Virus record (IMG/VR): IMGVR_UViG_3300032236_000718
Span: 64,001 to 128,000 of that record
DNA length: 64,000 bases
From: a virus
Reading direction: 5' to 3' (one strand)
Part shown: positions 36,648 through 54,279 of the stretch, piece after piece
How positions within the stretch are numbered: position 1 is the stretch's first letter
Layout of the letters: each line of letters opens with the position of its first letter
Position numbers and translations under genes: made by a program
The notes under the pieces: generated by a model
What the model was told of the DNA's origin: nothing
The model's input: only the letters and a program-made list of their open reading frames with translations
Database searches by the model: none

Positions 36648-36659
36648 TAGGAGAAGAAA

Positions 36660-36911: not shown

Positions 36912-36933
36912 CAGTGAATAGGACTATTATATC

Positions 36934-37149: not shown

Positions 37150-37182
37150 CCCTCGGTTTCTACCGATTGATAGGGATGCCAG

Positions 37183-40100
37183 ATGGCTAGTAAGATTATT
37201 ATCAGAAGGACTACGGTATCAGGAAGAACTCCTAATACAGTAGATCCTACCAACACACAGTTTATTAATACTGGAGAGTTGGCCCTCAACCTGACAGACA
37301 AGAAGCTATTCTCGTCTAACGGCACTTTGTCGTTTGAGATCGGGTCTAATCTTACCAGCCTTGTAGTATCAAATACTATATTCCTAGGAAACAGTACAGT
37401 CAACACGACTGTAAATTCAAGCTCCATCTACATAGCTAACTCTACAGCTAATACCTTAATCAAGCCAGGTAATGCTGCACTATTTGGTTCGGTTATTCAG
37501 GTTGGTAACTCTACAGTAAACAGTGTCATAACAAGTTCTGCTATTGCAGTCAATGGTGACTATGTAGCTACAAATAACTATGTACAGAACACATTTATTA
37601 CAAATGTTACAGCCTATAGTGTATTTGCTCTGGCCGCAAACGTTACTAACTCTGTCGACGCAGTTATATCTAACACACTTAATGTAGCTAATAGTCTTTT
37701 TGTTAATACTACAGCTATAAGCATATCTAATAATATAGCTTTATACGCTAATGGCGAGTTTGGTGGATCAGGCACATTCTTATCATCAAATGGATCAGGT
37801 GTTTATTGGGCAGCAGCTGTAACACCATCAGATCTATCAGTAAACTCAATAAGCATAACTGGTGGAAGATTAGCAGTAGGTAACTCACTAGTTAATGTAG
37901 AAATATCTAATAACTCTATTAAGATAGGTAACTCCACATCAAACATAGTTATTAACTCAACTATGATTATAGCTAATGGTTCTGCTGGTGGTAATGGAAA
38001 CTATCTTACATCTAATGGAACATCCATATATTGGACTTCATCTGTTACTCCAACAAATCTAACAGTAGACAATGTAGAAGTTAGTAATGGCCATGTATCT
38101 GTTGGAAACTCAACAGTAAACACAATAGTATCTAATACCGGTCTTATTGTAGGAAATAGTACAGTAAATTCTACTGTTAATTCAACATCATTTTCCGGTA
38201 CTTCAAATAATGCATTGTATCTCGGTGGAAATAGTGTATCTACTATTCTTACGTATGCAAATAATAAAGCAGCAAATGCATATTCAAACGCAACAAGCTA
38301 TGCTGATTATGCTGCTGAAAATGCCTATTCAAATGCTGTCTCATATACTGATATTGTTGTGTCATCTAATGCTACAACAACTTACTCTAATTCAGTAGCA
38401 TATACAGATATAGCTGTGGCAAATGCTTACAGTAATGCTGTGACTTATACTAATAATAAGGCAGGAAATGCATATTCCAACGCGGTAACATATGCAGGAA
38501 ATGCTGCTGCAAATGCCTACTCTAATGCAGTAAGCTATGCAGACCTAGCTGCAACAAATGCATATTCCAACGCGGTAAGTTATGCTAGTAATGTTGCTGG
38601 AAATGCCTATAGCAACTCAGTCACATATACAAATAATAGAGCTGCTAATGCATACTCTAATGCAGTCACATATGCCAGTTTAGCAGCTGCAAATGCATAT
38701 ACAAATGCAGTATCATATGCTGACTCAGCAGCAGCGACTGCTTACTCTAATGCAGTCACATATTCATCCAGCTATGCCGACTCTCACTCTGCAACTGCAT
38801 ACGCTAATGCTGTTTATAATGCTGGACTGTATGCAGCAAATGCATACAGTAATGCAATTGCATATGCAGGTTTAGCAGCGGCTAATGCTTACTCTAATGC
38901 TATATCTTATGCAGGAAGTGCAGCTACTAGTAATGCTGCTGCTGCATATGCTAATGCAGTCACTTATACAAATACTTACTTTGCACATCTTTCTGGGGCA
39001 ACATTTACTGGTAATGTCGTAATATCAAATACAGGACTTATAGCTAACGGCTCTATTGGCACCAACAAGCAGGTTCTACTAAGCAATGGATCATCCCCAT
39101 ACTGGGCAGCACTAGCTCCTGTCAGACAGAACTATACTGCTAACGGAACAGGAACTACCTATACAGTCTCTGGTGGATATACACCATATAATCTAGATGT
39201 GTATGTGAATGGTGTCAAGTTACTTAATGGTATTGATGTAGACGTGTCTAACGGATCTATATTTACAACGACTTCAACATATCCTAGTGGAACTACAATC
39301 GACGTGTTAGGTCAGGTCCCGTACACGGGGGCACCCGGTTCTTATGTGTCTAAAGCTGGCGATACTATGTCAGGTACACTCACTGTTGGAACTACACAGA
39401 TTGGTAGTAGTTTTATAAATGTGAACTCAGTCGCTTCAGGCTTAATACCTTCAACTAACCTAGCGTTTAGTTTGGGAAATACAACAAACCGCTGGAATGA
39501 CTTATATGTGGGTTCTAACTCTATTATATTCACAGACTCTTCTGGTGGTCCTGACCAATACTTAAAACTAGCTAACCAGGTTTTTAGTATAATTCAGGCT
39601 GGTACATCTAACTCGTATAATGCAAATGCCGGCTTTAATGCTGGTGGAATACTATTACAGAACTTTACTATAACACTATCAAACACTGCACACGACTTCC
39701 AGATAGGTGTCGATGCTGACACTGCAAATGTTGTTATACATAGACCATTATTAATAGGTAACTCGACTGTCAATACTTCTATTAATGGTATATCTGTCTC
39801 TACAAATACTGCTAAAGTAAATTATATCTCTGCAAATGGAACTACGGGTGTTGTAGGTCAAGTCCTTTTATCTGGTGATGGTTCTTCTAATGTCTATTGG
39901 GGTGGAGTTAAGTCGAACACGGTTATTATAGCAAACACGACCTATACTGCTACGGCTAATGATAAGTGGATGGGATTTACAGCTAACGTGTCGACATTGA
40001 CTCTGCCTAATACACTTAATGGTGCTACAGATGGTAAAGAATATCAAGTAGCCTGTATGGGCGGAGGCAGCAAATCAAACGTGATTATACAAGTCGAAAC

Positions 40101-40200
40101 AGGAAGTACTTTATATGCCAACGGTGCGCAGTCTGTTCCTAATATTACTCTAGGAAGATTCATTTACATCAGTGGTGTCTGGTATGGTACAATAGGCTAA
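37183..40200 (+). CDS. Tail fibre with gp37-like N-terminus and 15-aa coiled-coil stalk
   Basis: IIIRRT.VSGRTP...GELALNLTDKKLF resembles the T4 gp37 N-terminus; NAYSNAVxY repeats; VSKAGDTMSG fibre motif. Confidence 0.75.
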   Translation: MASKIIIRRTTVSGRTPNTVDPTNTQFINTGELALNLTDKKLFSSNGTLSFEIGSNLTSLVVSNTIFLGNSTVNTTVNSSSIYIANSTANTLIKPGNAALFGSVIQVGNSTVNSVITSSAIAVNGDYVATNNYVQNTFITNVTAYSVFALAANVTNSVDAVISNTLNVANSLFVNTTAISISNNIALYANGEFGGSGTFLSSNGSGVYWAAAVTPSDLSVNSISITGGRLAVGNSLVNVEISNNSIKIGNSTSNIVINSTMIIANGSAGGNGNYLTSNGTSIYWTSSVTPTNLTVDNVEVSNGHVSVGNSTVNTIVSNTGLIVGNSTVNSTVNSTSFSGTSNNALYLGGNSVSTILTYANNKAANAYSNATSYADYAAENAYSNAVSYTDIVVSSNATTTYSNSVAYTDIAVANAYSNAVTYTNNKAGNAYSNAVTYAGNAAANAYSNAVSYADLAATNAYSNAVSYASNVAGNAYSNSVTYTNNRAANAYSNAVTYASLAAANAYTNAVSYADSAAATAYSNAVTYSSSYADSHSATAYANAVYNAGLYAANAYSNAIAYAGLAAANAYSNAISYAGSAATSNAAAAYANAVTYTNTYFAHLSGATFTGNVVISNTGLIANGSIGTNKQVLLSNGSSPYWAALAPVRQNYTANGTGTTYTVSGGYTPYNLDVYVNGVKLLNGIDVDVSNGSIFTTTSTYPSGTTIDVLGQVPYTGAPGSYVSKAGDTMSGTLTVGTTQIGSSFINVNSVASGLIPSTNLAFSLGNTTNRWNDLYVGSNSIIFTDSSGGPDQYLKLANQVFSIIQAGTSNSYNANAGFNAGGILLQNFTITLSNTAHDFQIGVDADTANVVIHRPLLIGNSTVNTSINGISVSTNTAKVNYISANGTTGVVGQVLLSGDGSSNVYWGGVKSNTVIIANTTYTATANDKWMGFTANVSTLTLPNTLNGATDGKEYQVACMGGGSKSNVIIQVETGSTLYANGAQSVPNITLGRFIYISGVWYGTIG
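38260..38975 (+). repeat. Approximately 45-nt coding repeat (NAYSNAVxYxxxAAA)
   Basis: Recurrent AATGC(A/T/C)TA(T/C)(TC/AG)NAATGC. Confidence 0.85.
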
Positions 40201-40234: not shown

Positions 40235-43200
40235 ATGAGTCAGAACCAAAATTTAGGTACGTTTGCTGACTTCCTTTCGGTCAATACCAGCCCGAACACC
40301 ATCTCGGTATCGGCACCGCTGACTATCGCAAACAATCTGACTGTTACTGGAACACTGACTCTCTCGGGTAACACAGTCATATCTGGTGCTAATAACCTTG
40401 TACTTCAATCTTCAGTATTGAGTCTTCATACTCAAGCTAATCTCGCGCCTCTGACTTCAGATGATGGTCAGAATATTGGTATCGCATTCCACTACTATGA
40501 CGGTTCAGATAGACAAGCTTTCCTTGCGAGAGTCGACACTACAGGCTATCTTGCATATTACAACACATCTACTGACGTATCACTAGGACCAGTATCTGGT
40601 ACTGACCTTGGTACTATTCAGGCTGCAAGTTTTGTAGCCGGTAATTCAACGGTCTACACAATAACTAATGCAACAATTTTCAGCGGTACTGCTAATAATG
40701 CTAGCTACTTGAGCGGAAATACAGTATCAGATCTTCACACCTATTCTGATAATAAAGCTGCAAACGCATATAGTAATGCCGTAACATATGCTTCTCTTGC
40801 TGCTGCTAATGCCTACTCTAATGCTATAGCTTATGCAGGCACTGCTGCAACAAGTAATGCTGCACAGGCATACTCAAATGCTGTTGCTTATACAGACTTA
40901 GCAGCCGCTAATGCTTATAGTAATGCAGTAAGTTATGCCGCAAACGTTGCCGCTAATGCTTATAGTAATGCAGTAAGTTATGCTGGAAATGCAGCTGCGA
41001 ATGCTTATAGTAATGCAGTAAGCTATGCTGGAAACGCGGCTGCAAATGCTTATAGTAATGCTATTGCTTATTCTGGTAATGCTGCTTTAGCATATGCTAA
41101 TGCTGTTACATATGTAAATAATAAAGCTGCTAATGCTTATGCTAACGCGATAGCTTATTCTGGAAATGCTGCACAAGCATACTCAAATGCAACTACTTAT
41201 GCAGATAATAAAGCTGCAAATGCTTATAGTAATGCTGTCACATATGCTGGTAATAAGGCGGATAATGCATATAGTAATGCAGTCACATACTCAAGTCTAG
41301 CTGCTGCTAATGCATATTCTAATGCAATAAGTTATGCAGCTTTAGTTGCAGCAAATGCCTACTCAAATGCAATAAGTTATGCTGGAACTGCCGCAACTAG
41401 TAATGCCGCACAAGCATATTCTAATGCTGTTACGTATGCAGATAATAAAGCTGCAAATGCCTATAGTAATGCTGTTACATATGCTGGTTTGGCTGCCTCA
41501 AATGCATATACTAATGCTGTTTCCTATACAGATAATAAAGCAGCTAATGCATATTCAAATGCTATAGCTTATTCAGGAAACGCAGTACAAGCATATACTA
41601 ACGCAATATCTTATGCAGCAAATGCGTATTCAAATGCTACAAGTTATGCAGACTTAGCCGCTGCAAATGCATATTCAAATGCTACAAGTTATGCAGCAAA
41701 TGCTGCAGCAAATGCGTATTCAAATGCTACAAGTTATGCATCTTTAGCTGCTTCAAATGCATATGCTAATGCAACTTCATATGCTAGTTTAGCCGCTGCA
41801 AATGCCTATTCAAATGCAATAGCTTATTCTGGTAATGCTGCTCAAGCATATGCTAATGCAATAGCTTATACCAACACAAATATAGCTCTTACTACTGGTA
41901 CCACATTTACCGGTAACGTTATATTTAATGCTAATATAGTTGCAAATACTCTAGTAGCTAATGGCTCGCTTGGCAATGTTGGTCAAGTATTAACTGCAAA
42001 TAGCACTGGTGGGTTGTATTGGGCATCAGATCAATTTGTTGGGAATGTTGTAGCAAATATAGTAACATCTAATACTCTTACATCAAATCATGTTGTAGTT
42101 AATAATGATATATCGATTGTTAACGGATCTTATAGCAATACAGCAATGTATAGTGATAGGATTTTTATAGGAAATGGTGATATTCAAACTACTGTTAATA
42201 GTACAACTTTTTGGGCTACTTTCAGTAATACATCATCTCATGATGTTTATATCTCGTCTATTACATCATCAGGTGGTTATATAAATTCAACTGCTATTGG
42301 AATAAATCTTGAGCCTTTAATCTCATTAGGTATGAGCTGGAGTGATCGTAATGGTGGAGGTGGTGCACCAAGGTTCTTCCCACAAGGGTCGCCATATGCA
42401 TTATCACAGAACTTATTTAATGTTAATGCCTCATTTATCCAATTAGGTAATAGCACGAACTATGTAAACTTTACAGTTGGAAATAATGCGCCAACTATCC
42501 AGTTTATTAGTCCTAGTGCAACAGGCGGTGGAATCACCATCAATCAATCTGGAATAAGTACTGGAAATAGTGTCTCTGGCACTGCTGCTAACACACAGGG
42601 TTTCTATATAAATGGAACTGAAGTTTATGCAAGAAAGTCAGGCACTACATTTACAGGAAATGTTGGTTTCAACGCTAATATAGTTGCAACCAGACTTGTG
42701 GCAAATGGTGCTCTTGGCGGTAATAACCAAGTGTTAACATCAAACTCTACTGGTGGTCTTTTCTGGTCAGCTGGAGTTACAATCAATAATTTAGCAGCCG
42801 ACTATATTAATATCGCGGTAGGTAATTTAACTGTAGGTAATACTACTGTTAATACGAGTGTATCAAACAATGGTGTACTTGTACAAAATGCTACTTCATC
42901 TTCTACATTAAATCTCTCTGGCCTGAATATAGGAAATGCTACTGTTAACGCTGTAATGAATAGTAGCACACTTTCAATAGCATCTGCTACTATTAATAAT
43001 ACCACGATAACTGGCAATCTAACTGTTAATAATACACTTACGGTAACAGGTAATCTGGTACTTGCTGGATCAACCACATATATTAACTCCACTGTTATTA
43101 CTACAAAAGATCTTAATATTATATTTGCAAACGGTGCAGCAAATAGTTTCTTAACAGATGGTGCTGGTATAGTAGCTGGAATATATGCTAATTTAGTATT

Positions 43201-44566
43201 TGATGATCCTACTACTTCTTGGCAGTCAAATGTAGGTATTACACCTTATAGTAATAATTTAAGTCTTGGTGCTGCAACTAAACTCTGGAATCTATATGCT
43301 AATCAGATTACATTAAATCAGATCATAGCAAATGGTTCTATGGGTAATGTAGGTCAAGTTCTTACATCAAATGGTACTAGCCTATATTGGGCATCTGACC
43401 AACTGGTTGGAAATGTTACAGCAAATCTAGTAACATCTAATACGCTGTCGGCAAATCATATTTTAGTTAATAATGATATAGCAATTGTTAATGGATCTTA
43501 TAGTAACGTAGTAATTCGTAGCGATAGTGTCTTTGTTGGTAATTCAACTGTCAACTCTTCTATCAACTCTACTTCATTTACAGGTACATCATTTAATGCA
43601 AACAATGCAACCTATCTAAATGGAAATACGGCAGCTACATTAATTAACTATGCAGCGAATGCATATAGTAATGCAATAGCATACTCTAATGCTGCACAAG
43701 CATATGCTAATGCTATTGCTTACACTAATACAAATATTGTTCTTAAGACTGGAACTACATTTACTGGTGCTGTAACATTTAATGCTAATATAGTAGCTAA
43801 CACGTTTGTTGCAAATGGTCTTCTTGGAAGTGTTGGTCAGGTATTAACTGCAAATAGTACAGGCGGACTATATTGGGCAACAGACACTAACGTAGCAAAT
43901 GTCACGGCAAATGTTGTGACAACAAATACTCTTTCTGCCAATCATGTTGTTGTAAATAATGACTTGTCAGTTGTTAATGGATCATATAGCAACTCTGCTA
44001 TGTACAGTGATAGGATCTTTATTGGTAATTCTACTGTTAACGCAACAGTTAATTCTACTGTATTTAGTGGAACATCGCTTAATGCAAACAATGCAACCTA
44101 TCTAAATGGAAATACGGCAGCTACATTAATTAACTATGCAGCAAATGCTTACTCTAATGCTATATCTTATACTAATACAAATATAGCTCTATTATCTGGA
44201 GCAACATTTACCGGTGTAGTGACTACTGTAGCTAATCTGGTTGTTAACTCTGCTATAATTGCAGGTGGTAGTAATGGAACTTTTGGACAAGTTCTTACAT
44301 CAAACGGATCTAGCGGAGTTTATTGGTCTACAGTATCTGGCGGAGGTGGTGGAGGTAGTGTTAATACTGCTGCTACTTACGCGTTTACAAATACTACTAC
44401 ATCTGGTAATGCAACTTCAGGAGCTATCACAACAGCCGGTGGTCTTGGCGTTGCAAATAACCTATATGTTGGAGGCAGAATGGGATTCTCTAATGCATCT
44501 AATATATCTGTAGTATATCAATTCTATAATGCAAATACAAACTCACTTGATACGGCATTTGGATAA
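40235..44566 (+). CDS. Long tail fibre with 15-aa coiled-coil stalk and internal duplications
   Basis: NAYSNA repeats, repeated ANG.LG..GQVLT.N....LYW modules, C-terminus YNANTNSLDTAFG. Confidence 0.75.
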   Translation: MSQNQNLGTFADFLSVNTSPNTISVSAPLTIANNLTVTGTLTLSGNTVISGANNLVLQSSVLSLHTQANLAPLTSDDGQNIGIAFHYYDGSDRQAFLARVDTTGYLAYYNTSTDVSLGPVSGTDLGTIQAASFVAGNSTVYTITNATIFSGTANNASYLSGNTVSDLHTYSDNKAANAYSNAVTYASLAAANAYSNAIAYAGTAATSNAAQAYSNAVAYTDLAAANAYSNAVSYAANVAANAYSNAVSYAGNAAANAYSNAVSYAGNAAANAYSNAIAYSGNAALAYANAVTYVNNKAANAYANAIAYSGNAAQAYSNATTYADNKAANAYSNAVTYAGNKADNAYSNAVTYSSLAAANAYSNAISYAALVAANAYSNAISYAGTAATSNAAQAYSNAVTYADNKAANAYSNAVTYAGLAASNAYTNAVSYTDNKAANAYSNAIAYSGNAVQAYTNAISYAANAYSNATSYADLAAANAYSNATSYAANAAANAYSNATSYASLAASNAYANATSYASLAAANAYSNAIAYSGNAAQAYANAIAYTNTNIALTTGTTFTGNVIFNANIVANTLVANGSLGNVGQVLTANSTGGLYWASDQFVGNVVANIVTSNTLTSNHVVVNNDISIVNGSYSNTAMYSDRIFIGNGDIQTTVNSTTFWATFSNTSSHDVYISSITSSGGYINSTAIGINLEPLISLGMSWSDRNGGGGAPRFFPQGSPYALSQNLFNVNASFIQLGNSTNYVNFTVGNNAPTIQFISPSATGGGITINQSGISTGNSVSGTAANTQGFYINGTEVYARKSGTTFTGNVGFNANIVATRLVANGALGGNNQVLTSNSTGGLFWSAGVTINNLAADYINIAVGNLTVGNTTVNTSVSNNGVLVQNATSSSTLNLSGLNIGNATVNAVMNSSTLSIASATINNTTITGNLTVNNTLTVTGNLVLAGSTTYINSTVITTKDLNIIFANGAANSFLTDGAGIVAGIYANLVFDDPTTSWQSNVGITPYSNNLSLGAATKLWNLYANQITLNQIIANGSMGNVGQVLTSNGTSLYWASDQLVGNVTANLVTSNTLSANHILVNNDIAIVNGSYSNVVIRSDSVFVGNSTVNSSINSTSFTGTSFNANNATYLNGNTAATLINYAANAYSNAIAYSNAAQAYANAIAYTNTNIVLKTGTTFTGAVTFNANIVANTFVANGLLGSVGQVLTANSTGGLYWATDTNVANVTANVVTTNTLSANHVVVNNDLSVVNGSYSNSAMYSDRIFIGNSTVNATVNSTVFSGTSLNANNATYLNGNTAATLINYAANAYSNAISYTNTNIALLSGATFTGVVTTVANLVVNSAIIAGGSNGTFGQVLTSNGSSGVYWSTVSGGGGGGSVNTAATYAFTNTTTSGNATSGAITTAGGLGVANNLYVGGRMGFSNASNISVVYQFYNANTNSLDTAFG
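40750..41875 (+). repeat. Approximately 45-nt coding repeat, same family as 38260-38975
   Basis: GCTAATGCTTATAGTAATGCAGTAAG-type units. Confidence 0.85.
43593..44142 (+). repeat. Exact 64-nt direct repeat (43593-43656 and 44079-44142) marking a 486-nt module duplication
   Basis: TTAATGCAAACAATGCAACCTATCTAAATGGAAATACGGCAGCTACATTAATTAACTATGCAGC occurs twice. Confidence 0.9.
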
Positions 44567-46191
44567 TGGCAGTTATTCCTGTTTCTAAATTATACTCAAA
44601 TGGTACATTAGCTATAGCTAGTAATTTTGACGAGACTATATCTATCACACCATCAACTACAAAGACATATTCAAACGGAACTTTAGTATCAAGTTTCTTT
44701 GATGAGACTATGTCTATATCTCCATCAGTCTCGAAGCTATACTCTAATGGTGCTATAAGTGTTTCAGGTAAATTTGATGAGGTAACTAATAATCCTACCG
44801 TATTTGGAAGTTTAAATACTTTTTATAATGATACTAATACTTGTATAATTTTACCAAATAGTAATAATTATAATTTTAGTACTGGTGATTTTACCTTTGA
44901 GACTTGGGTTTATCTTCATAATCCAATATCAGCTAGTAGCCCCTATGGTGGTGGTATAGCTTCATTATCTTATCAATATGGTGCTTCAGGTCGTACATCA
45001 TGGATCGCATCGCTTACTTATAATTCAGGTGATGCAAATTCTTCTTTCTTTACATTTGTTACAACGACAGATGGTAATTCAAATACATTAAATTCTAATG
45101 CATATTATTCTACACATACTACTCCAATAAAAAGATCAAATTGGACGCATCTTGCTGCATCTAGATCCGGTTCAAATCTTTATCTATCTGTCGATGGAAA
45201 TGTACAGTCTTTTACAATTAGTTCTGCTGCGTTATATAACAATAGTACTGACCCTTTTATTATTGGATCATATTCATATACATCTAGAAATTCTTCTCTT
45301 TTTATGTTTTTAGGTAAATTATCAAACTTAAAAATAGTTAAAGGAGCTGCACTATATACAAGTAATTTTACACCACAGCTTGTTCCTTCAACTGCAGACT
45401 CTAATACTGTGCTTTTACTAAATACATTATATGTCGATCCGTTTAAAGACTCAAGCCAATATAATGTTACGTATACTAGTATTGGAAATACAACACCAGA
45501 ATCCTTTACACCTTTTAATCCACCAGGATATAATAGCATATATTGTAATTCAACTTCTGGTGCATTTAGTGTTATAACAAATGCTACACCATCTTTTCAA
45601 TTAAATAATAGTGATTTTACTATTGAAACTTATATATATCCAACATCTCTATCAAAAACAATTCTTGATACAAGAACTTCAAATACATCAATAAATGGAA
45701 TAGTCTTACAGACAAGAGCTGGTGCAAATATACAACTTACGGCAAATGGAACTAATTATTTTGGTTCAGGAGCAAATGTTATAACTAATACATGGAATCA
45801 TGTGGCTGTAACAAGATCAAGTAATGTGTTTAGTGTATGGGTAAATGGTGTTAAAGCAATAACACAAAATCTAGGGGTTACTTTATCTGATCAGGCAAAT
45901 TGGTTAATTGGTGCTGGGCAACCGGGTACTTCTAATGGATATATTGGTGCTTATTTTAGTAATTTTAGGGTAGTTACAGGCCAGGCATTATATTCTAATA
46001 CTTTTACACCTTCAACAAAACCACTATTACCTATAGCTAATACAATCTTATTAACAGCACAGTCCAATAAGTATATAGATAATTCAACCAGTAATATAAA
46101 TGTTATTGCAGTAAGCAATTCAATATACAGCGATTTAGTCTCTAATAATCAACCCTTCAAGTTTGATTTTTCTAACACCGGTCTAAGCTGA
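44566..46191 (+). CDS. Concanavalin A-like (LamG) lectin-domain protein, 2 domains, with three N-terminal YSNG...FDE repeats
   Basis: DFTFETWVY...WTHLAASR...LSNLKIVKG and DFTIETYIY...WNHVAVTR...SNFRVVTG. Confidence 0.8.
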   Translation: MAVIPVSKLYSNGTLAIASNFDETISITPSTTKTYSNGTLVSSFFDETMSISPSVSKLYSNGAISVSGKFDEVTNNPTVFGSLNTFYNDTNTCIILPNSNNYNFSTGDFTFETWVYLHNPISASSPYGGGIASLSYQYGASGRTSWIASLTYNSGDANSSFFTFVTTTDGNSNTLNSNAYYSTHTTPIKRSNWTHLAASRSGSNLYLSVDGNVQSFTISSAALYNNSTDPFIIGSYSYTSRNSSLFMFLGKLSNLKIVKGAALYTSNFTPQLVPSTADSNTVLLLNTLYVDPFKDSSQYNVTYTSIGNTTPESFTPFNPPGYNSIYCNSTSGAFSVITNATPSFQLNNSDFTIETYIYPTSLSKTILDTRTSNTSINGIVLQTRAGANIQLTANGTNYFGSGANVITNTWNHVAVTRSSNVFSVWVNGVKAITQNLGVTLSDQANWLIGAGQPGTSNGYIGAYFSNFRVVTGQALYSNTFTPSTKPLLPIANTILLTAQSNKYIDNSTSNINVIAVSNSIYSDLVSNNQPFKFDFSNTGLS

Positions 46192-46197
46192 TAAATA
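46190..46197 (+). promoter_or_regulatory. Late promoter (GATAAATA)
   Basis: Near-consensus 22 nt before the ATG at 46219. Confidence 0.55.
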
Positions 46198-46218
46198 TGG
46201 TGATCAAAGGATAAACAT

Positions 46219-49200
46219 ATGGCAAATCTACTAAGTGGCACTAGAATTTTTGGTACAGCAAACGTTGACACCCAGATCAACGTCAACACTTCTGTATTGA
46301 ATGCTACCAGCCTGTTCATCGGTAACTCGACAGCAAATGCTACCGTCAACACGGTAGGTGTCTATATCGGTGGCGTGTTTCAGGGTGTTAATACATCTGC
46401 CCAGTATGCTTTCAGTAATACTATCACGTTTGGTAATGCCACAGTCAATGCTGCTATAAGCTCTAACTCTACAGTCACATCATTTAGTGGAACTGCAAAC
46501 AATGCGTTAAACTTTGGTGGATATGGATTATCAACATTTGTCACTAACTCACAGTTATCGACTACCCTGACAAACTATGTCAATACGACTGCAAACTTTA
46601 CATATACCGGAACACAGACATTTAGTAACTTAGCAACACATAATGCTAACGTTACTATCAATGCTGCAATTATTGCCGGTGGTAACTCCGGTCAAGCTGG
46701 TCAAGTATTAACATCAAATGGATCAGGTAACGTATATTGGTCGACTGTAACAGGAGGTGGCGGCGGTGGATCTGTAAACACTTCCGCACAGTATACCTGG
46801 ACAAATACTCAGACATTTACTACTAACGTATTCTTCAGCAACCTTTCTATGGGTGCTACATCTAATAGTATTCTGTCATTAATTACCAAAGGATCCTTTA
46901 GTAATACATGGACTACTAATACTCCTACTGGTTTTGCGGTAAAGCAAGGCCTAGTTGCTTATGCACCAACTAGTGGTAATACTGGTATCTTCTTAGCTAA
47001 GCCTGTTAATACTAATACATCTTACTACTCAACTGATGGTGTTACTTGGTCGGCTGGTCCCACTATTGCAAATGCGGCAGGAACAACACTGGCAAATGCT
47101 AACATATTAGTATATGTTCCTAACCCAGTTTTAGGAGCTGCTACCGGTGAACCTCAGGGTAAATTTGTTTTAGGTGTAGGTAATACTACTCTTTATTATA
47201 TCAACGTAACAAATGCTACTACTTCTGCAATAAATTGGAAAACATCTTCTGCTCCTGCAAACGTAACTTATATGGCATATGGTGCAGGAAGATTAGTAGC
47301 TTTAGTAAGTAATACTACAGTTTCTTCATATACATCATCTGTAGATGCTAATACATGGAGTCCACAAACAAGCGCAGTCAATGGTCTTGGTAAATTTATA
47401 GCATACTATCCAGATTTATATGGTGGTAGATTTGTTGCGATGTTTGGTGGATATAGAATGGAAACATCTACTGATGGATACGCTATACCATCTGTTGGTT
47501 GGGATTATCTATCATTTAACGCTACAACTCTAAGTACAAATGGTACAATTAATGCAACATCTCTTAATAGTCCAATAAGTTATAATCCTGTAACAGGAAC
47601 ATATCTAGGTGTTTCAAATAACTATATTTTTAGTTCTACTGATTTTGTTAATTGGACAATTGCAAACAATGGAGTAGCACAATGGTATTCACTTGGTTCA
47701 TATGGTGGTTATAATCTCTTTACTGCAAATAATACTGGTACCATATATGGTATAACAAATACAGTAAACACAGTAACTACAATTTATAGTTCACCTGGAA
47801 TTAATGCTACATCTGGTCCTGCATTTATATCTACTCCTTATAGTCATACCATATTTGATAACTCTACTACTGGTAATAATATAAGCACATTTTCCTATGG
47901 AACAACCGTTATAAATCCACAGCAACGTGGATATATGGATAATATAATAATAGGTGAGTCTATCCCAACTAGAGGTCGTTTTAATGAACTCACTGCAGCT
48001 ATATTAACTATTAATCCGGCTAGTTCCAATACTTCTGTAGGTGGCTATACTCAAACAACTATTGGTGATGGTTTAACAATACAAGGTGGTGGTAGTACTT
48101 CTCTTACTGGTATTAGATTTGGTACATTTTATACTGGAGTTCCTGGAGGAGCCAACAGTAATATGACTGGTACTGGCTTTTTTGTCGGTAGCTCTACGAC
48201 AAATGCATATCTATATAATACAGGATTATATTTTAACCAGAATAATGCCACTGGAACAAACGGTCTCTTTAATACTTCTCAGATTTATATTAATCCGACA
48301 GCAGCAGCTAATAGTTCCGGAACAGGTGGCTTCTGGCTTAACCCGACAAGTGGATTATATTTAGGAAATACAGGTAGTAGCTTTGGCATTACACTATCAA
48401 CTAGTGCTGGAGCTTATCTATATCTTGGATCTACTACCCAGTCTACAACTGGTACTGGTGGTGCAATAGCAAATAACTCTACATATTTCTTTGGTAATAA
48501 TACTATCAATGCATATATGACTGCTAACTATTCAGGTGGTAACTTAGCACTAGTAATGCAAAACACAACTACTAATGCATATTTAACACCTAATACATTA
48601 TTCATTGGTAATGCGAGTATTAATACTACAGTTAATACGGTAGGAATTTATCTCAATCCTACTTCTGGTGCTAACACTACTGGTAATGGAGGTCTTTCAC
48701 TAGATCCAATTAACGGTATGTTCTTTGGAAATAACACAATTAATGCTACACATAATACAAGTACTATAATACTTAATCCTACTTCTGGTGCTAACACTAT
48801 TGGTACTGGTGGTTTATATATCAATACTGTTGGGCTGTTTATTGGTAACTCTACAGTTAATACTATTCAAAATACATCATCATTATCAATAAATCCTACT
48901 GCTTCTGCTAATACTACCGGTACAGGTGGTTTATATATCAACCCAACTACTGGAATCTTTATAGGAAATACTGGTGGAAATATAACATTTAACGTAGCTA
49001 CTTCCGGCTCTCCAGTAGTTAACGTTGGAAATGGTGGTACTATAACTGTTGGAGGTGCTACTGTTACAACTACTGGTAATGGTGGGTTCTTAGCAAATAA
49101 TACTACCTTACTTATTGGTAATAATATAATTAATGCTCAGTTTACTGTATCTGCACTTTATATAAATCCAACATCAGCAGCTAATACGACAGGCAATGGT

Positions 49201-49527
49201 TCTCTATATGCTACAGCAACGTCTATAAATCTTGGTAATAGTACGTCAAATGCTGTTATAAATACTACTGGTGTATATGTTAATGGTACTGCACTTATTA
49301 ATAGTATTAATACCGCTGCACAGTATACATGGACAAACACTACTATATTCTCTAATACTACTGCATCTACAAATAACGTGTCAGGTGCAGTACAGGTTTA
49401 TGGTGGTGTAGGTGTAAATGGTAATATATATACTGCAGGTAGAATTGGTTACGCATCAGCCAACGTAAGTACCGCATATACTTTTTATAATGCTACAACT
49501 GGAACATTGGATACGGTATTTGGATAA
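46219..49527 (+). CDS. Tail fibre with Asp-box (BNR)-like propeller region and NPT..ANTTG.GG repeats
   Basis: YSTDGVTWS, SSVDANTWS, SSTDFVNWT; C-terminus YNATTGTLDTVFG. Confidence 0.7.
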   Translation: MANLLSGTRIFGTANVDTQINVNTSVLNATSLFIGNSTANATVNTVGVYIGGVFQGVNTSAQYAFSNTITFGNATVNAAISSNSTVTSFSGTANNALNFGGYGLSTFVTNSQLSTTLTNYVNTTANFTYTGTQTFSNLATHNANVTINAAIIAGGNSGQAGQVLTSNGSGNVYWSTVTGGGGGGSVNTSAQYTWTNTQTFTTNVFFSNLSMGATSNSILSLITKGSFSNTWTTNTPTGFAVKQGLVAYAPTSGNTGIFLAKPVNTNTSYYSTDGVTWSAGPTIANAAGTTLANANILVYVPNPVLGAATGEPQGKFVLGVGNTTLYYINVTNATTSAINWKTSSAPANVTYMAYGAGRLVALVSNTTVSSYTSSVDANTWSPQTSAVNGLGKFIAYYPDLYGGRFVAMFGGYRMETSTDGYAIPSVGWDYLSFNATTLSTNGTINATSLNSPISYNPVTGTYLGVSNNYIFSSTDFVNWTIANNGVAQWYSLGSYGGYNLFTANNTGTIYGITNTVNTVTTIYSSPGINATSGPAFISTPYSHTIFDNSTTGNNISTFSYGTTVINPQQRGYMDNIIIGESIPTRGRFNELTAAILTINPASSNTSVGGYTQTTIGDGLTIQGGGSTSLTGIRFGTFYTGVPGGANSNMTGTGFFVGSSTTNAYLYNTGLYFNQNNATGTNGLFNTSQIYINPTAAANSSGTGGFWLNPTSGLYLGNTGSSFGITLSTSAGAYLYLGSTTQSTTGTGGAIANNSTYFFGNNTINAYMTANYSGGNLALVMQNTTTNAYLTPNTLFIGNASINTTVNTVGIYLNPTSGANTTGNGGLSLDPINGMFFGNNTINATHNTSTIILNPTSGANTIGTGGLYINTVGLFIGNSTVNTIQNTSSLSINPTASANTTGTGGLYINPTTGIFIGNTGGNITFNVATSGSPVVNVGNGGTITVGGATVTTTGNGGFLANNTTLLIGNNIINAQFTVSALYINPTSAANTTGNGSLYATATSINLGNSTSNAVINTTGVYVNGTALINSINTAAQYTWTNTTIFSNTTASTNNVSGAVQVYGGVGVNGNIYTAGRIGYASANVSTAYTFYNATTGTLDTVFG

Positions 49528-52500
49528 TGACAATAACACCATATACACAATACATATACAAATATGATACAGCAAACTCTGCTATTTGGGACGCTTGGAA
49601 CTTTTCAAATACAAACCCAACTAGTGTCGGCTCAAGTTATTGCTTAGAGTTTTTTGTTAACTTTCCAAATGGTATAGGTAATTTAGCTAGTGCCTCAGCT
49701 TTAGTAATTAATCCTGGCGTATATCCTATATTACAAATAGCTATAGGAAATAATGGAATTGTATTTGCAGAAGCTGGATATGTTGGTGAATTTTGTAAGC
49801 ATAATACACCAGTATTAGCAAATACGTGGTATCATTTTGCTTATATAGGAACAAATTCTGTTACGTATGCTTTTCAAAATGGTGTACCGCTTTTATGGTA
49901 TACTGATGCGACCTTGACTACTCAGACAGCAACACCGACCCATGGTGGACCCGGCGGTGGCGGTGGATATAGCCAAAATGGAACACTAGCTCTTAATACC
50001 ATGGGTGTTGGACCCAGTTCACCTAATAGCACAGTTTCTGCTGCAAATCTTGTTTTTAATATTAGTAATCTTAGGTTTACTAGGGGTCTAGCTAATCAAT
50101 CATTATATCCTCTTACAGGATTTATTACTCCAGTTTCAACTCTAACCGCAAGCAATACGGCAAATAACTGGACAGAAACACTATTATTTACAGATAGTGC
50201 TAATAATCTTTTAAATCAAGGTAGAGGTTCTGTAGTCAATTATAGTACTGGGTCGCCTACTATTGCTGTTGCTCCTGGACCTTTTAATAATACACTTCCA
50301 GTTTATAATTCACCATATCCTAATAATACATTATTAAGTGCAAGTCTTTCATCAAACGGTGTTTACTATACTCCTTCATATTTTGATGAGGTTTCTGTAA
50401 GTACACCCGGATCAATAACATTTAACGGAAACAATCAGTTTCTATTTGTTGATTATAGTAATTCGCCAACCTTATTTAATTTTGGAACTGGAACTGTTGC
50501 TCCATATGTACCATTTTGTTTTGAGGCTTGGGTATATCCTACATCTTATACGAATAAATTTACAATAATAAACAGATATCTTATTCCTGGCGGTGCTAAT
50601 CCTCCAGTATTTGCTTTTTATATCAATAGCGCAAATAATATAGTTTGGCAGTCATATGCATCAGGAACATTTACACTAAATCCAACTACACTAGCTCCAC
50701 CATATTCTATACCATTAAACAGTTGGACACATGTCGCTTTAACTAGAGACAGTTCTGCAAACTATAAGATGTTTGTTAATGGTTATGTTGTGGCTACTAC
50801 TACAAACACAGCAGCTACACTAGCAAATACAAATACTGAGAGCTTCATATATATAGGAAGAGCTCAGAACGCAAATCTTTCTTTTCATGCAACAGGATCA
50901 CTAACAGGTCTAAGAGTAAGTTCTGGAATACCAACTCCATATCAGACTACAAATACTACCATTGGGACTCGTATATTTACGCCATCAACGACACCCCCCA
51001 ATACAATGGCAAATACAGTACTATTAATTAATCCATATAGCCAGTTTCCAACAGATTCTAGTGGCACATATAGTAGACCAACTACTAATACATTTGGTTA
51101 TAATACTAGAGTATTTAACTCTGTTAATACTATCTCTTCTGCTACTAATGTTAACGGTCCCGCTGCATTTTCCACTAATAGCCCATATGTAAAACCATCT
51201 TATGCTACATCAGTTTCTCCTAATAGTGCAGTATTTAAAGTAAAAGATACTATAGATGAAGTGTCTTTATCAACAGGAAGTATAGCTTTTAATAGAACCG
51301 GATATTTAAATGTCACTGATAGTCCAGTATTAAGTCTTGCTAATCTTACTTTTACAATTGAGGGTTGGTTTAATACTACTGATACCACTACCGTAGCTCC
51401 ACAAGTTATCATGGCTAGAGGACAGGCCAATGCTATAGTTAATAATACAGGAGGTGGATGGGCTATTATATATCATCCTTATTACGGTATTTTTATGTAC
51501 TTTAATCAGTCGGGTCCTCAAAATCCAATTAGAGTATATAATAGTGGTAATACGGGTTATGTTACAAGTAATACATGGTTTCATTATGCTGCAGTTGGAA
51601 ATGGTACATCTATTTCTATGTACATAAATGGAAATCAAATGATATCATTGCCTGGTTATTCTAATACTTCTTTACTAGGTATAGATCCTGGAGTTCCATT
51701 ATATATAGGATATGATAGTGGAAATTCATATCAAGCTAATAGTAATGGTATGATACAAGGATCTATATCAAACTTAAGAATATCAAATAATGTGGTATAT
51801 ACTGCAAACTTTGTTCCAAGCAAATTACCATTTTATTCTAACTCCACAACACAATTTTTATTAAATTGTATTAATGCTAATACTATATACTATAGAGATG
51901 ACTTAAATATTGTTACACCTGTTGGGACAATATCATATAGTAATTCATCTCCATTTAATATAACACCAAACACTGCTTTAAGACTAACAAATACTGGAAT
52001 GATACAAGTCAAGGGTGGAGTAGATGAGACAACTATAAGTACTGGAAGTTTATATTTTAATAATACGGCTTTTAGATATGTGATGGTTCCCCCAAGTACA
52101 TCGTATAATCTTGGTTCAAACAACTTTACAATAGAAGGATTTGTATATTTTTCATCTTTTGATATAACTTCATCTAATCAAATTATAATTGAACAAAGGT
52201 CAAATAACAGTTATGCTACTGGTGACTGGCTTGTATATGCAACTAATAATAGTATAGTTTTTACCGGATATGATTATTCTAATTCATATGCGTCTGTAGT
52301 GGCTAGTACTGGCTTAGTTTCAAATAATTGGTATCATTTTGCTGTCATGAGAAATGGCGCTACTATCGGTATGTATATAAATGGTATTCAAACACAGACA
52401 AATACTGCAGTAAATCTAGGTACTAATAATAATAGAATAACTATAGGAGCAGATCAAGGAAGTACCGCTGCTAGATGGTTCTTAAATGGATATTTGAGTA

Positions 52501-53486
52501 ATCTACGAATAATTAATGGCAGTTTAGCATATAGTACACCTTCATTTACTGCTCCAGCATCTCCGCTTACTGCTATACCAAATACATCATTTTTAATGAC
52601 TACACCATATAATTCAAATGAACTACTAAATGTTAGTAACAGTACCGTATATTATAGCTCAAATGGTTTTGCCAATTCATATATTGCATTTCCTATGTCT
52701 AGCCCTAATAATTATAATCTTTCTCCAGCTCCATTTAGTAATAATAATCCATTTGGAATAGCTCAAAAAGATATTCCAGGTTCAATATATGTTTCTACTA
52801 ATAGCATGTTTTATGCACCAATTGTCGGTAAACCTGTAATAGGAACTGGTGACTTTACTATGGAGTGTTTTTGGCACCCGACATTATTAAATTATGCTGC
52901 TAATAATAGTTTTGTTACAAATATAATGGGAGTAACCGCTAGAATAGAATTAAACTGGGACGGTGGAACTAATACAATAGTTGTTGCTGTATCTACTACT
53001 GCAAACGTTCCAATATTGCAGGGTGGTGTCCCGGGACAAACTTCAAATGTTATAATAGGAACACCACCTAGTTCAAACTCTCTACTAAATACATGGAACC
53101 ATGTAGCAATAAGTAGAACGAGTAATACACTTAGACTTTTTCTCAATGGAACTATGTTAGGTTCAACTACTGATAATAATAATTATATTAATGATTCTTA
53201 TTATTGTTTTAATCAGGTTCTTACAAATTATTCTGCATATATATCTAATTTTAGACATGTTATCGGAAGATCACTATATAATGCAGATACCAGTTTTACT
53301 CCACCCACAGCTCCATTAATAGCAGTAGCAAATACAGCTACATTGTATAACATGAATTATGGTGCAGGTTATTATAATGACACAATTAGTGGATTACCAC
53401 TTATTAATATATATTCAAATGGTCAACCTATACAGGTATTTGGTAATAACTATTCATCTTTCTCACCAGTCGGTTCAACTATTTAA
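49527..53486 (+). CDS. Multi-LamG (five ConA-like domains) adhesin
   Basis: Five F(T/C)xExW/F...WxHxA...SNLR-type units. Confidence 0.8.
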   Translation: MTITPYTQYIYKYDTANSAIWDAWNFSNTNPTSVGSSYCLEFFVNFPNGIGNLASASALVINPGVYPILQIAIGNNGIVFAEAGYVGEFCKHNTPVLANTWYHFAYIGTNSVTYAFQNGVPLLWYTDATLTTQTATPTHGGPGGGGGYSQNGTLALNTMGVGPSSPNSTVSAANLVFNISNLRFTRGLANQSLYPLTGFITPVSTLTASNTANNWTETLLFTDSANNLLNQGRGSVVNYSTGSPTIAVAPGPFNNTLPVYNSPYPNNTLLSASLSSNGVYYTPSYFDEVSVSTPGSITFNGNNQFLFVDYSNSPTLFNFGTGTVAPYVPFCFEAWVYPTSYTNKFTIINRYLIPGGANPPVFAFYINSANNIVWQSYASGTFTLNPTTLAPPYSIPLNSWTHVALTRDSSANYKMFVNGYVVATTTNTAATLANTNTESFIYIGRAQNANLSFHATGSLTGLRVSSGIPTPYQTTNTTIGTRIFTPSTTPPNTMANTVLLINPYSQFPTDSSGTYSRPTTNTFGYNTRVFNSVNTISSATNVNGPAAFSTNSPYVKPSYATSVSPNSAVFKVKDTIDEVSLSTGSIAFNRTGYLNVTDSPVLSLANLTFTIEGWFNTTDTTTVAPQVIMARGQANAIVNNTGGGWAIIYHPYYGIFMYFNQSGPQNPIRVYNSGNTGYVTSNTWFHYAAVGNGTSISMYINGNQMISLPGYSNTSLLGIDPGVPLYIGYDSGNSYQANSNGMIQGSISNLRISNNVVYTANFVPSKLPFYSNSTTQFLLNCINANTIYYRDDLNIVTPVGTISYSNSSPFNITPNTALRLTNTGMIQVKGGVDETTISTGSLYFNNTAFRYVMVPPSTSYNLGSNNFTIEGFVYFSSFDITSSNQIIIEQRSNNSYATGDWLVYATNNSIVFTGYDYSNSYASVVASTGLVSNNWYHFAVMRNGATIGMYINGIQTQTNTAVNLGTNNNRITIGADQGSTAARWFLNGYLSNLRIINGSLAYSTPSFTAPASPLTAIPNTSFLMTTPYNSNELLNVSNSTVYYSSNGFANSYIAFPMSSPNNYNLSPAPFSNNNPFGIAQKDIPGSIYVSTNSMFYAPIVGKPVIGTGDFTMECFWHPTLLNYAANNSFVTNIMGVTARIELNWDGGTNTIVVAVSTTANVPILQGGVPGQTSNVIIGTPPSSNSLLNTWNHVAISRTSNTLRLFLNGTMLGSTTDNNNYINDSYYCFNQVLTNYSAYISNFRHVIGRSLYNADTSFTPPTAPLIAVANTATLYNMNYGAGYYNDTISGLPLINIYSNGQPIQVFGNNYSSFSPVGSTI

Positions 53487-53499
53487 CTAGGATTTTAAA

Positions 53500-54279
53500 A
53501 TGGGAAGACTTTTAGATGGCTCAAGAGTTTTTGGTGGTTTATCAGTAGACTATCAGATTAACGTCGGGTCTATTGGATCCACTAGTAATTCTTTTATTAG
53601 TATATCAAATAATACAGGAGCTGCACTTTATATATCAAATACTACTGCTAACGTGTATGTAGTCAACACTTCAGGAATATATGGTGTTTTATCTTCTCTC
53701 GGAAACATCACGGTAAATGCTACTACTTTATTTGTTGGTAATACTACAATTAATGCGACTGTTAATACAAGTTCATTGTCTTTAAATCCTATATCGGCAG
53801 CTAATACTACCGGTACAGGTGGTGCTGCAATGAGTTTAACAACGTTGTTTTTTGGTAATAGCACGATTAATACTACTCATAATACAAGCTCTTTAGTACT
53901 TAATCCAACTGCGTCTGCTAATACAACCGGTACTGGTGGTGCAACATTAGCAGCAACATCTATGTTTATAGGAAATAATACTGCAAATGCTATAATAAAC
54001 ACTGCAGGTGTCTATATTGGTGGTAAGTCTACTGCAGCAGCTACTGGTTACACAGTGCTTCCAAACGGTATTAAGATGAACTGGGGATCAATATCTGCAA
54101 ATAGCTTGGGTGTGTCTGGTACATTTGCTAGTGCATTTACTACACTTTATAACGTAACAGTTAGTGGAACTGTTGGTACCGCATTTGTGTGGCTTAGCGG
54201 CGCAAATAATACTACGGCTACTGTCACTACCAACAGCGCGACATCAAGTACAGTATACTATCACGCAATAGGAGTCTAA
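53500..54279 (+). CDS. Short tail fibre with GYxxLPNG..MNWG C-terminal domain
   Basis: N-terminus and repeats shared with 46219-49527; typical fibre tip motif. Confidence 0.7.
   Translation: MGRLLDGSRVFGGLSVDYQINVGSIGSTSNSFISISNNTGAALYISNTTANVYVVNTSGIYGVLSSLGNITVNATTLFVGNTTINATVNTSSLSLNPISAANTTGTGGAAMSLTTLFFGNSTINTTHNTSSLVLNPTASANTTGTGGATLAATSMFIGNNTANAIINTAGVYIGGKSTAAATGYTVLPNGIKMNWGSISANSLGVSGTFASAFTTLYNVTVSGTVGTAFVWLSGANNTTATVTTNSATSSTVYYHAIGV

What the first reader, a model, noticed from the sequence alone, without database searches (positions are those of the whole stretch)
40235..53486. Two cognate fibre/lectin pairs with a three-copy docking motif
Seen: two different fibres end in nearly the same peptide (GG.GV..N.Y..GR.G......S..Y.FYNA.T..LDT.FG; DNA GATACGG(C/T)ATTTGGATAATG). 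Each is translationally coupled (TAATG) to a LamG lectin protein. Each lectin has three copies of a short (S/T)NG...(F/I/V)DE motif. They are clustered at the N-terminus of the 541-aa protein (44566-44790) and dispersed between LamG domains of the 1319-aa protein (near 50385, 51255, 52025, more degenerate). Inference: a monomeric lectin uses three pseudo-symmetric peptides to cap a trimeric fibre. This would be a swappable receptor-binding tip system analogous to, but distinct from, gp37-gp38.
Basis: partly seen in the sequence, partly recalled or inferred. Interest (0 to 1): 0.8.

Follow-up and report, generated by a model that had tools for sequence, protein, structure and literature searches.

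The report
Three-hairpin kneecap joints in phage fibres
An uncultured T4-like phage builds a long fibre from three separate pieces, and each junction is probably held by a connector protein with three short hairpin repeats plus sugar-binding domains, doing the job of phage T4's "kneecap" protein with an unrelated, undescribed and widespread sequence.

Summary
Both fibres end in the same ~45-residue module (...YxFYNAxTxxLDT[AV]FG). Each overlaps (TAATG) a LamG protein that carries three ~23-residue hairpin units.

The pairing holds in both directions in other viral contigs. The unit occurs almost nowhere else. Copy number is three in 121 of 148 representative proteins and never higher, whether the units lie at the N-terminus, at the C-terminus or dispersed. 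About twenty representatives are 69-104-residue proteins made of the three units alone.

The gene after the connector nearly always (51 of 53) begins MAKLLSGTRIYGxAxVDTQ. In this window those genes are fibre B and the 259-residue ORF at 53500.

So this is most likely a three-part knee joint: fibre end, then a probably monomeric pseudo-threefold connector, then the next fibre's start. It is not a distal tip adhesin. The nearest known analogue is T4 (gp34)3-gp35-(gp36)3, not gp37-gp38, and I found no sequence similarity to T4.

Binding and stoichiometry are untested. AlphaFold2 monomer models leave the units at low confidence.

This window has two joints in series. No Pfam or PHROG family and no GenBank phage matches the module. 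This scan reached the same knee-joint reading on three other genomes (e1-5782882, e1-5782876, e1-5737652).

The parts
40235..44566 (+). Fibre segment A (1443 aa). It is rich in AYSNA repeats and repeated GxxGQVLTSN..YW motifs. Its N-terminus is not of the MAKLLSGTRIYG type.
   Evidence: ORF list, translation; no Pfam or PHROG family
44429..44563 (+). Conserved C-terminal end module of fibre A (...GGLGVANNLYVGGRMGF...VVYQFYNANTNSLDTAFG)
   Evidence: 52% identity to the end of fibre B. The last 45 aa average 59% pairwise identity across 50 unique related fibres, against 24% further upstream.
44566..46191 (+). Connector A (541 aa): three contiguous N-terminal hairpin units followed by two LamG domains. 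Its start codon overlaps the stop codon of fibre A (TAATG).
44566..44799 (+). Three-unit docking module of connector A (residues 1-78; the units end in FDE at residues 21-23, 45-47 and 70-72)
   Evidence: Sliding-window unit HMM scores of 24, 10 and 28 bits. Aligns with 35 other modules, including stand-alone 69-104-aa proteins. AlphaFold2 gives six short strands, i.e. three hairpins, at pLDDT 58.
46219..49527 (+). Fibre segment B (1102 aa). It carries both the N-terminal joint motif and the C-terminal end module.
46219..46284 (+). N-terminal joint motif of fibre B (MANLLSGTRIFGTANVDTQINV)
   Evidence: One of only two such ORFs in the genome; both directly follow a connector. The first 20 aa average 65% identity across 51 unique proteins, against 23-28% beyond.
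49390..49524 (+). Conserved C-terminal end module of fibre B (...GGVGVNGNIYTAGRIGY...AYTFYNATTGTLDTVFG)
49527..53486 (+). Connector B (1319 aa): LamG domains with three dispersed hairpin units, all internal. Its start codon overlaps the stop codon of fibre B (TAATG).
50328..50408 (+). Connector B unit 1 (residues 268-294, ...SLSSNGVYYTPSYFDEVS)
   Evidence: 24 bits
51201..51281 (+). Connector B unit 2, degenerate (residues 559-585, ...SVSPNSAVFKVKDTIDEVS)
   Evidence: Only 6 bits by HMM, but aligns in register with the other units in front of a LamG domain
51960..52040 (+). Connector B unit 3 (residues 812-838, ...RLTNTGMIQVKGGVDETT)
   Evidence: 19 bits
53500..54279 (+). Fibre segment C (259 aa), probably the distal end piece. 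It starts with the joint motif MGRLLDGSRVFGGLSVDYQINV and has no LDTxFG end.

Best explanation
The region encodes one long virion fibre made of three trimeric segments: A (1443 aa), B (1102 aa) and C (259 aa). The segments are joined end to end by two connector proteins, A' (541 aa) and B' (1319 aa). Each joint has three conserved parts. The first is the last ~45 residues of the upstream segment (...YxFYNAxTxxLDTxFG). The second is a connector that supplies exactly three ~23-residue beta-hairpin units (consensus xxRLxSxGxLxVxGxFDEVT) in a fixed 1-2-3 order. The third is the first ~20 residues of the next segment (MAxLLSGTRIYGxAxVDTQ). I infer that one connector chain gives one hairpin to each of the three fibre chains. 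This would form a pseudo-threefold link, as the monomeric kneecap gp35 does between (gp34)3 and (gp36)3 in the T4 long tail fibre. The domains fused to or inserted between the hairpins, LamG domains here, would then project sideways from the knee, where they could bind glycans on the host or another part of the virion. Shown here: the three conserved parts, their strict gene order and co-occurrence, the copy number of three, and the LamG fold. Inferred: physical binding, 3:1:3 stoichiometry, presence in the virion, and what the LamG domains bind.
For: Fibre end to connector: 77 viral loci were found with the fibre end alone. 60 of them have the 1-base TAATG-type overlap, and almost all carry the unit in the next ORF. 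Connector to fibre end: 22 of 23 loci found with a 73-aa connector have an upstream ORF ending LD[TV][VI]F[GAE]. Specificity: 73 connector ORFs against 2 others among 3230 ORFs, and 110 of 119 LamG homologues of connector A lack the unit, so it is not a LamG linker. Copy number: a profile search of 1.84 billion representatives gave 611 clusters at E<=1e-3. Of the top 148 real hits, 121 have three units, 27 have two and none has more, in arrangements NNN, NNC, NCC, CCC, NNm, Nmm and NmC (N = within the first 90 residues, C = within the last 90, m = internal). Unit order 1-2-3 is kept in 52 of 71 split forms, against 1 in 27 expected by chance. Third partner: 51 of 53 unique connectors are followed by an ORF with the N-terminal motif. 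65 of 71 such ORFs directly follow a unit-bearing ORF, and the other six follow degenerate connectors. The conserved stretches are confined to the two fibre termini. T4 precedent: gp35 is a monomer encoded between genes 34 and 36 (PMC3004832). Its docking 'tower-like' domain is built from residues 1-21 plus 324-372, with an ILEI/PANDER-like and a CBM-like domain inserted between them (bioRxiv 10.64898/2026.03.06.709160). That layout matches the one-N-terminal, two-C-terminal arrangement here (units at 4-26, 256-278 and 281-302 of a 304-aa connector). AlphaFold2 predicts three hairpins with no confident tertiary fold for the module on its own, which fits folding on a partner.
Against: There is no direct evidence of binding or stoichiometry, and no multimer prediction could be run. 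No part of the triad is detectably similar to T4 gp34, gp35 or gp36. The low AlphaFold2 confidence for the units could simply reflect shallow alignments. The middle unit of connector B is not significant by HMM. 27 of 148 representatives show only two units. Two of 53 connectors have no following fibre carrying the N-terminal motif, so some may act as end caps. Gene adjacency and shared ancestry alone would also produce co-occurrence. No cultured phage carries the system, so no virion data exist.
Confidence: 0.58

Rival explanations
1. Terminal cap or adhesin. The connector sits on the distal tip of each fibre as a monomeric lectin, like gp38 on gp37 in T2 and S16. The fibres carrying the N-terminal motif attach independently elsewhere, for example to the baseplate.
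For: The connector gene overlaps the fibre's stop codon. The attached domains are mostly glycan-binding or glycan-cleaving. Two of 53 connectors have no following fibre with the N-terminal motif. A monomer on a trimer tip has precedent in S16 gp38 (PMC9608196).
Against: The N-terminal motif occurs only directly after connectors and never on the first fibre of a cluster. Connectors of 69-104 aa with no attached domain could not be adhesins. The predicted beta-hairpins differ from gp38's helical attachment domain (PMC9608196).
Confidence: 0.12
2. Assembly chaperone. The three-hairpin protein templates trimerisation of the upstream fibre's C-terminus (as T4 gp38/gp57A, Mu Tfa or Pam3 gp25 do) and is released or dispensable in the mature virion.
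For: It lies immediately downstream of, and is translationally coupled to, the fibre gene, as many fibre chaperones are. The minimal 73-aa forms have no other domain. The units look unfolded on their own.
Against: Large lectin, propeller and glycanase domains fused to the module make little sense on a protein that is discarded. No similarity to Tfa-type families in Pfam or PHROGs. The strict link to the next fibre's N-terminal motif is not expected for a chaperone of the upstream fibre.
Confidence: 0.15
3. Same joint role but different stoichiometry. The connector is itself a trimer (3:3, as in Pam3 gp24-gp25), and its three units per chain serve some other purpose, such as stacking three layers of hairpins along the axis.
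For: Pam3 gp24-gp25 is 3:3 (PMC9608196). The three units are non-equivalent and ordered, which would also fit three axial layers.
Against: The attached domains are inserted at any of the inter-unit linkers and can exceed 1000 aa. Three copies of such chains around one thin fibre would be crowded. T4 gp35 is a monomer (PMC3004832).
Confidence: 0.1

Closest known systems
Phage T4 long tail fibre knee: (gp34)3 - gp35 kneecap (monomer) - (gp36)3 (PMC3004832; bioRxiv 10.64898/2026.03.06.709160)
   Same: The gene order is the same: proximal fibre, connector, distal fibre. The connector lies between two trimeric rods. gp35's docking domain is assembled from its N-terminal 21 and C-terminal 49 residues, with globular domains inserted between them, including a lectin-like CBM fold. 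This matches the split (one N-terminal, two C-terminal unit) connectors here in layout and segment lengths.
   Different: No sequence or profile similarity to gp34, gp35 or gp36. The docking part here is three recognisable repeats that can also be contiguous, can lie wholly at the C-terminus, or can stand alone as a ~73-aa protein. The attached domains are highly variable. This window chains two joints in series.
gp37-gp38 tip adhesin of T2/S16-type phages (PMC9608196; PMC12032242)
   Same: A monomeric protein encoded just after a trimeric fibre gene and attached to the fibre's C-terminal end, carrying the variable binding surface.
   Different: gp38 attaches through three short alpha-helices and carries a polyglycine sandwich at the very tip, with no further fibre following it. 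Here the docking units are beta-hairpins, a further fibre segment follows, and there is no sequence similarity.
Tail fibre assembly proteins (Mu/P2/lambda Tfa; Pam3 gp25, 3:3 complex, PMC9608196)
   Same: Small proteins encoded downstream of the fibre gene that bind its distal part; some remain on the virion.
   Different: These have a different fold (beta-sandwich plus a helical trimerisation domain) and a trimeric stoichiometry in Pam3. There is no family match here, and they are not followed by a conserved next-fibre N-terminus.

Membership tests
T4 gp35 kneecap (long tail fibre proximal connector) | Encoded between the proximal and the distal fibre genes | tested here: met
   The order fibre end, connector, fibre with the N-terminal motif holds in 51 of 53 unique loci and twice in this window. 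T4 gene order is 34-35-36.
T4 gp35 kneecap (long tail fibre proximal connector) | Sequence or profile similarity to gp35 (and of the partner fibres to gp34 and gp36) | tested here: not met
   The unit, N-terminal-motif and fibre-end HMMs all score below 3 bits on T4 gp34-gp38. hhalign of the module profile against gp35 gives probability 0.1%. No gp35-type PHROG hit.
T4 gp35 kneecap (long tail fibre proximal connector) | Docking domain built from N- and C-terminal segments with globular domains inserted between them | tested here: inconclusive
   Family members with one N-terminal and two C-terminal units have this layout. Connector A has all three units at the N-terminus and connector B has all three internal. 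AlphaFold2 did not pack the units confidently. No gp35 structure is in the local PDB copy.
T4 gp35 kneecap (long tail fibre proximal connector) | One copy (monomer) per trimeric fibre in the virion | not testable with these tools
   Only single-chain prediction was available, and no cultured phage carries the system.
gp38 adhesin of T2/S16-type phages | Helical N-terminal attachment domain plus a glycine-rich (PGII) sandwich, at the distal tip with no further fibre | tested here: not met
   No family match. The units are predicted as beta-hairpins. A further fibre gene follows in 51 of 53 cases.
Tail fibre assembly protein (Tfa / Caudovirales tail fibre assembly family) | Match to the Tfa-type family models | tested here: not met
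   No such hit in Pfam or PHROGs for connector A, connector B or the stand-alone modules.
Concanavalin A-like lectin/glucanase superfamily (LamG) | Pfam Laminin_G_3 above the gathering score, and a LamG/pentraxin fold | tested here: met
   PF13385 scores 85.6 bits (connector A, 2 stretches) and 176.3 bits (connector B, 4 stretches) against a cut-off of 27.6. The model of a related 304-aa connector matches pentraxin and LamG structures at Foldseek E about 1e-7.

The most novel reading that the evidence does not exclude
The three-hairpin module is a general, self-contained 'snap joint'. One chain mimics a turn of a trimeric fibre and so converts a threefold rod into an asymmetric platform. The platform both couples the next rod and displays any inserted domain sideways. 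Different joint variants, such as the two in this window that differ in all three parts, would act as orthogonal plug-and-socket pairs that fix the order of segments in multi-jointed fibres. This would be a natural, programmable assembly standard for phage fibres, evolved independently of, or diverged beyond recognition from, T4 gp35.
Probability: 0.35. Interest if true: 0.75.

Novelty: new variant of a known kind. Interest (0 to 1): 0.6.

Why it matters
How a single-copy protein attaches to a threefold fibre, and how multi-segment fibres assemble in the right order, has so far been seen essentially only in T4, and only at about 7 A resolution. This family offers a much simpler and sequence-readable version: three short repeats, two short terminal motifs, and a minimal 73-residue form that should be easy to express.

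It is widespread in aquatic T4-like phages (611 clusters at 50% identity). It carries a varied set of glycan-binding and glycan-cleaving domains, so it probably contributes to host recognition in abundant uncultured phages. It also lets these genes be annotated: they are currently 'hypothetical protein', or are mislabelled 'baseplate wedge' because of their LamG domains.

Tried and rejected
- AlphaFold2 of the three-unit module alone gave pLDDT 58 and pTM 0.32. It shows three hairpins but no confident fold, so it does not settle whether the module is an autonomous domain.
- AlphaFold2 of a 304-aa connector with one N-terminal and two C-terminal units, run to see whether the separated units pack together, gave a confident LamG core only. 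The units scored 50-70 pLDDT, so the result is uninformative.
- Homology to the T4 knee found nothing (HMMs; hhalign).
- T4 gp35 has no entry in the local PDB copy, so no fold comparison was possible.
- Cultured phages: tblastn of the fibre end and of a 73-aa connector against 50,697 GenBank phage records found no match. BLAST's low-complexity filter may have hidden weak hits.
- Pfam and PHROGs have no family for the module or for the fibre end. The ESM Atlas gave only sub-threshold look-alikes.
- The idea that the unit is merely a LamG inter-domain linker is rejected: 110 of 119 LamG homologues lack it, and it also occurs with non-LamG domains and on its own.
- The search for related loci with the diverse 16-sequence module alignment failed because no stretch was conserved enough. 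It was repeated with a closer set.
- Single-linkage clustering of the attached domains lumped everything together and was dropped.
- P0129, the top-scoring 20-repeat hit of the profile search, is an unrelated tandem-repeat artefact.
- I considered residue-level covariation between the fibre end and the units but did not run it. The adjacent genes share ancestry, so it could not separate physical contact from descent.
Full report
**What is in the window**

The window is bases 64001-128000 of a 164,428-bp, 99%-complete viral record from IMG/VR. Its baseplate wedge protein is only 33-37% identical to those of Caulobacter phage Cr30, Pelagibacter phage HTVC008M, the Methylophilales Melnitz phages and rhizobiophages. 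It is therefore a T4-like myovirus with no close cultured relative.

The finding's region holds four ORFs on the + strand:
- fibre A, 40235-44566, 1443 aa
- connector A, 44566-46191, 541 aa
- fibre B, 46219-49527, 1102 aa
- connector B, 49527-53486, 1319 aa

A 259-aa ORF follows at 53500-54279.

**Checking the observation**

- The last 79 residues of the two fibres are 52% identical.
- They are the only two such stretches in the genome.
- Both junctions read GATACGG[C/T]ATTTGGATAATG, so stop and start codons overlap by one base.
- Both downstream proteins are LamG proteins: Pfam PF13385 at E 5e-24 and 6e-52.
- Connector A has three contiguous units in its first 78 residues.
- Connector B has two clear units, at residues 268-294 and 812-838. 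A weak third at 559-585 is not significant by HMM but aligns in register with the others, each just before a LamG domain.
- A loose regular expression for the motif hits no other ORF in the 164-kb genome.

**Is the pairing real elsewhere?**

I used only the fibre-end peptide to fetch 77 viral loci.
- In 60 of them the next ORF starts with the same one-base overlap.
- A unit HMM built from these proteins finds the unit in almost all of the next ORFs.
- In the two apparent exceptions, L021 and L047, a small unrelated ORF is inserted after the fibre. In L047 the next gene is a connector with three units. In L021 I did not test the next gene for units.
- Among 3230 six-frame ORFs (525,000 residues) from all loci plus the whole genome, hits of at least 12 bits fall in 73 connector ORFs and 2 others, both beside a fibre of this kind.

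In the reverse direction, 23 loci were fetched with a 73-aa connector alone. In 22 of them the upstream ORF ends LD[TV][VI]F[GAE].

**What the unit is not**

The unit is not a LamG linker. Of 119 LamG homologues of connector A, 110 lack it.

**Copy number and arrangement**

A profile of the module searched against 1.84 billion representative proteins found 611 clusters at E<=1e-3. Among the top 148 real hits, 121 have exactly three units, 27 have two and none has more.

The arrangements, where N means within the first 90 residues, C within the last 90 and m internal, are:

| Arrangement | Proteins |
|---|---|
| NNN | 70 |
| NNC | 17 |
| CCC | 11 |
| NNm | 9 |
| NCC | 7 |
| Nmm | 5 |
| NmC | 2 |

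- About twenty representatives are 69-104-residue proteins made of nothing but the three units.
- The three units are not equivalent. Type-specific HMMs trained on the contiguous (NNN) forms recover the order 1-2-3 in 52 of 71 split forms, against 1 in 27 expected by chance.
- The extra domains are therefore insertions into the linkers of one conserved three-part module. An alignment of ~300-aa members shows the same LamG domain placed after unit 1, unit 2 or unit 3.
- The attached domains are mostly glycan-related: LamG_3 in 61 of 127, Gly_rich_2 in 16, then SBBP propellers, sialidase N-terminal domain, GLEYA, PA14, an alpha-1,3-glucanase, a pectate-lyase-like helix and CBM_4_9.

**The missing third partner**

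The gene after the connector begins MA[KNQ]LLSGTRIYGxAxVDTQ in 51 of 53 unique complete cases.
- Of 71 ORFs with this N-terminal motif, 65 directly follow a unit-bearing ORF. The other six follow connectors with degenerate units.
- The first fibre of a cluster never has the motif. Those fibres start with other motifs, for example the IxIKR...GELA type.
- In this genome only two ORFs have the motif: fibre B and the 259-aa ORF. Each directly follows a connector.
- Conservation is confined to the termini. The last 45 residues of the upstream fibres average 59% identity against 24% further in. The first 20 residues of the downstream fibres average 65% against 23-28% beyond.

The conserved unit of organisation is thus a triad: fibre end, three-hairpin connector, next fibre start.

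**Interpretation**

This is the layout of the T4 long-tail-fibre knee. There gene 35 lies between genes 34 and 36, and gp35 is a monomer joining trimeric gp34 to trimeric gp36 (PMC3004832).

A 2026 preprint describes gp35 as follows (bioRxiv 10.64898/2026.03.06.709160):
- a 'tower-like' docking domain made of residues 1-21 plus 324-372, which resembles the fold of the end of the proximal rod;
- an ILEI/PANDER-like domain and a CBM-like domain inserted between those two segments.

One short N-terminal segment and a roughly 50-residue C-terminal segment is the NCC arrangement seen here. An example is the 304-aa connector of L027, with units at 4-26, 256-278 and 281-302.

I therefore read the connectors as kneecap-type joints, and the three hairpins as a single-chain imitation of a threefold fibre layer. 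Binding, stoichiometry and virion location are inferences.

There is no detectable sequence relationship to T4 gp34, gp35 or gp36. The claim is 'works like', not 'is a member of'.

**Structure predictions**

- The module alone gave three hairpins at pLDDT 58 and pTM 0.32.
- The 304-aa NCC connector gave a confident LamG core (pLDDT above 90; pentraxin and LamG matches at Foldseek E about 1e-7) with low-confidence units.
- This is compatible with folding on a partner, but it is weak evidence either way.

**What is special in this window**

Only 1 of 41 complete downstream fibres ends again in LDTxFG, and that one is fibre B of this window. This phage therefore chains two joints, A-A'-B-B'-C.

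The two joints differ in all three parts:
- fibre ends: VYQFYN...LDTAFG against AYTFYN...LDTVFG
- unit arrangement: contiguous against dispersed
- next-fibre starts: MANLLSGTRIFG against MGRLLDGSRVFG

Such differences would be needed to fix the order of segments, though this is an inference. Connector B's arrangement, with all three units internal and LamG domains on both sides, is rare in the family.

**Rivals**

- A released chaperone is disfavoured by the large fused lectin and enzyme domains.
- A trimeric connector cannot be excluded.

**Novelty**

- Neither Pfam nor PHROGs has a family for the module or the fibre end.
- No GenBank phage record matches.
- My literature searches found no description of this system.
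- The scan's own notebook shows the same knee-joint reading reached on three other genomes. I looked this up after reaching the reading independently.

Noticed in passing
window 54281-54598 (+): A 105-aa ORF directly after fibre segment C has a sub-threshold match to Pfam DUF7936 (E 2e-5, 25.6 bits against a cut-off of 27). A look-alike follows the short end piece in locus L011 (7617-7946). It may be a partner or chaperone of the distal piece.
   Followed up: partly
window 46411-46794 (fibre B residues 65-192) versus 44003-44380 (fibre A residues 1257-1382): The N-proximal part of fibre B is 51% identical to the C-proximal part of fibre A, including GQVLTSNG..VYWSTV(S/T)GGGGGGSVNT(A/S)A.Y. The two segments therefore share a module just outside the joint elements, a sign of duplication or module shuffling.
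   Followed up: no
window 40235-44566, about residues 170-560 of fibre A: Dozens of AANAYSNA[VI][ST]YA-type repeats, plus four or more repeats of the motif G..GQVLT[AS]N..G..YW along the shaft. No Pfam or PHROG family matches.
   Followed up: no
window 32430-40200 (+): Two further fibre genes (1405 and 1005 aa) start with the IxIRR...GELA-type N-terminus. The first ends in DGGTF and is followed by an 83-aa ORF, which may be a different kind of joint upstream of fibre A (also raised in note e1-5644537). How fibre A's own N-terminus (MSQNQNLGTFADFLSV...) is attached is unknown.
   Followed up: no
loci L021 (about 6196-6426) and L047 (about 6200-6517): In these two relatives a small ORF (76 and 105 aa; the 105-aa one carries a repeated PEDHGLxDSEIEAxKQQ motif) is inserted directly after the fibre end. 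In L047 a three-unit connector follows it; the gene that follows it in L021 was not tested.
   Followed up: partly
window 55535-60438 (+): A 1344-aa protein whose last ~110 residues match PHROG tail-fibre and 'baseplate wedge initiator' families, followed by a 289-aa glycine-rich protein matching a PHROG 'tail fiber protein; host specificity' family. This looks like another, separate fibre system.
   Followed up: no
protein P0129 (profile search): The 1195-aa hit with 20 matched stretches is an unrelated perfect tandem repeat that scores by composition. It is not a member of the family.
   Followed up: yes
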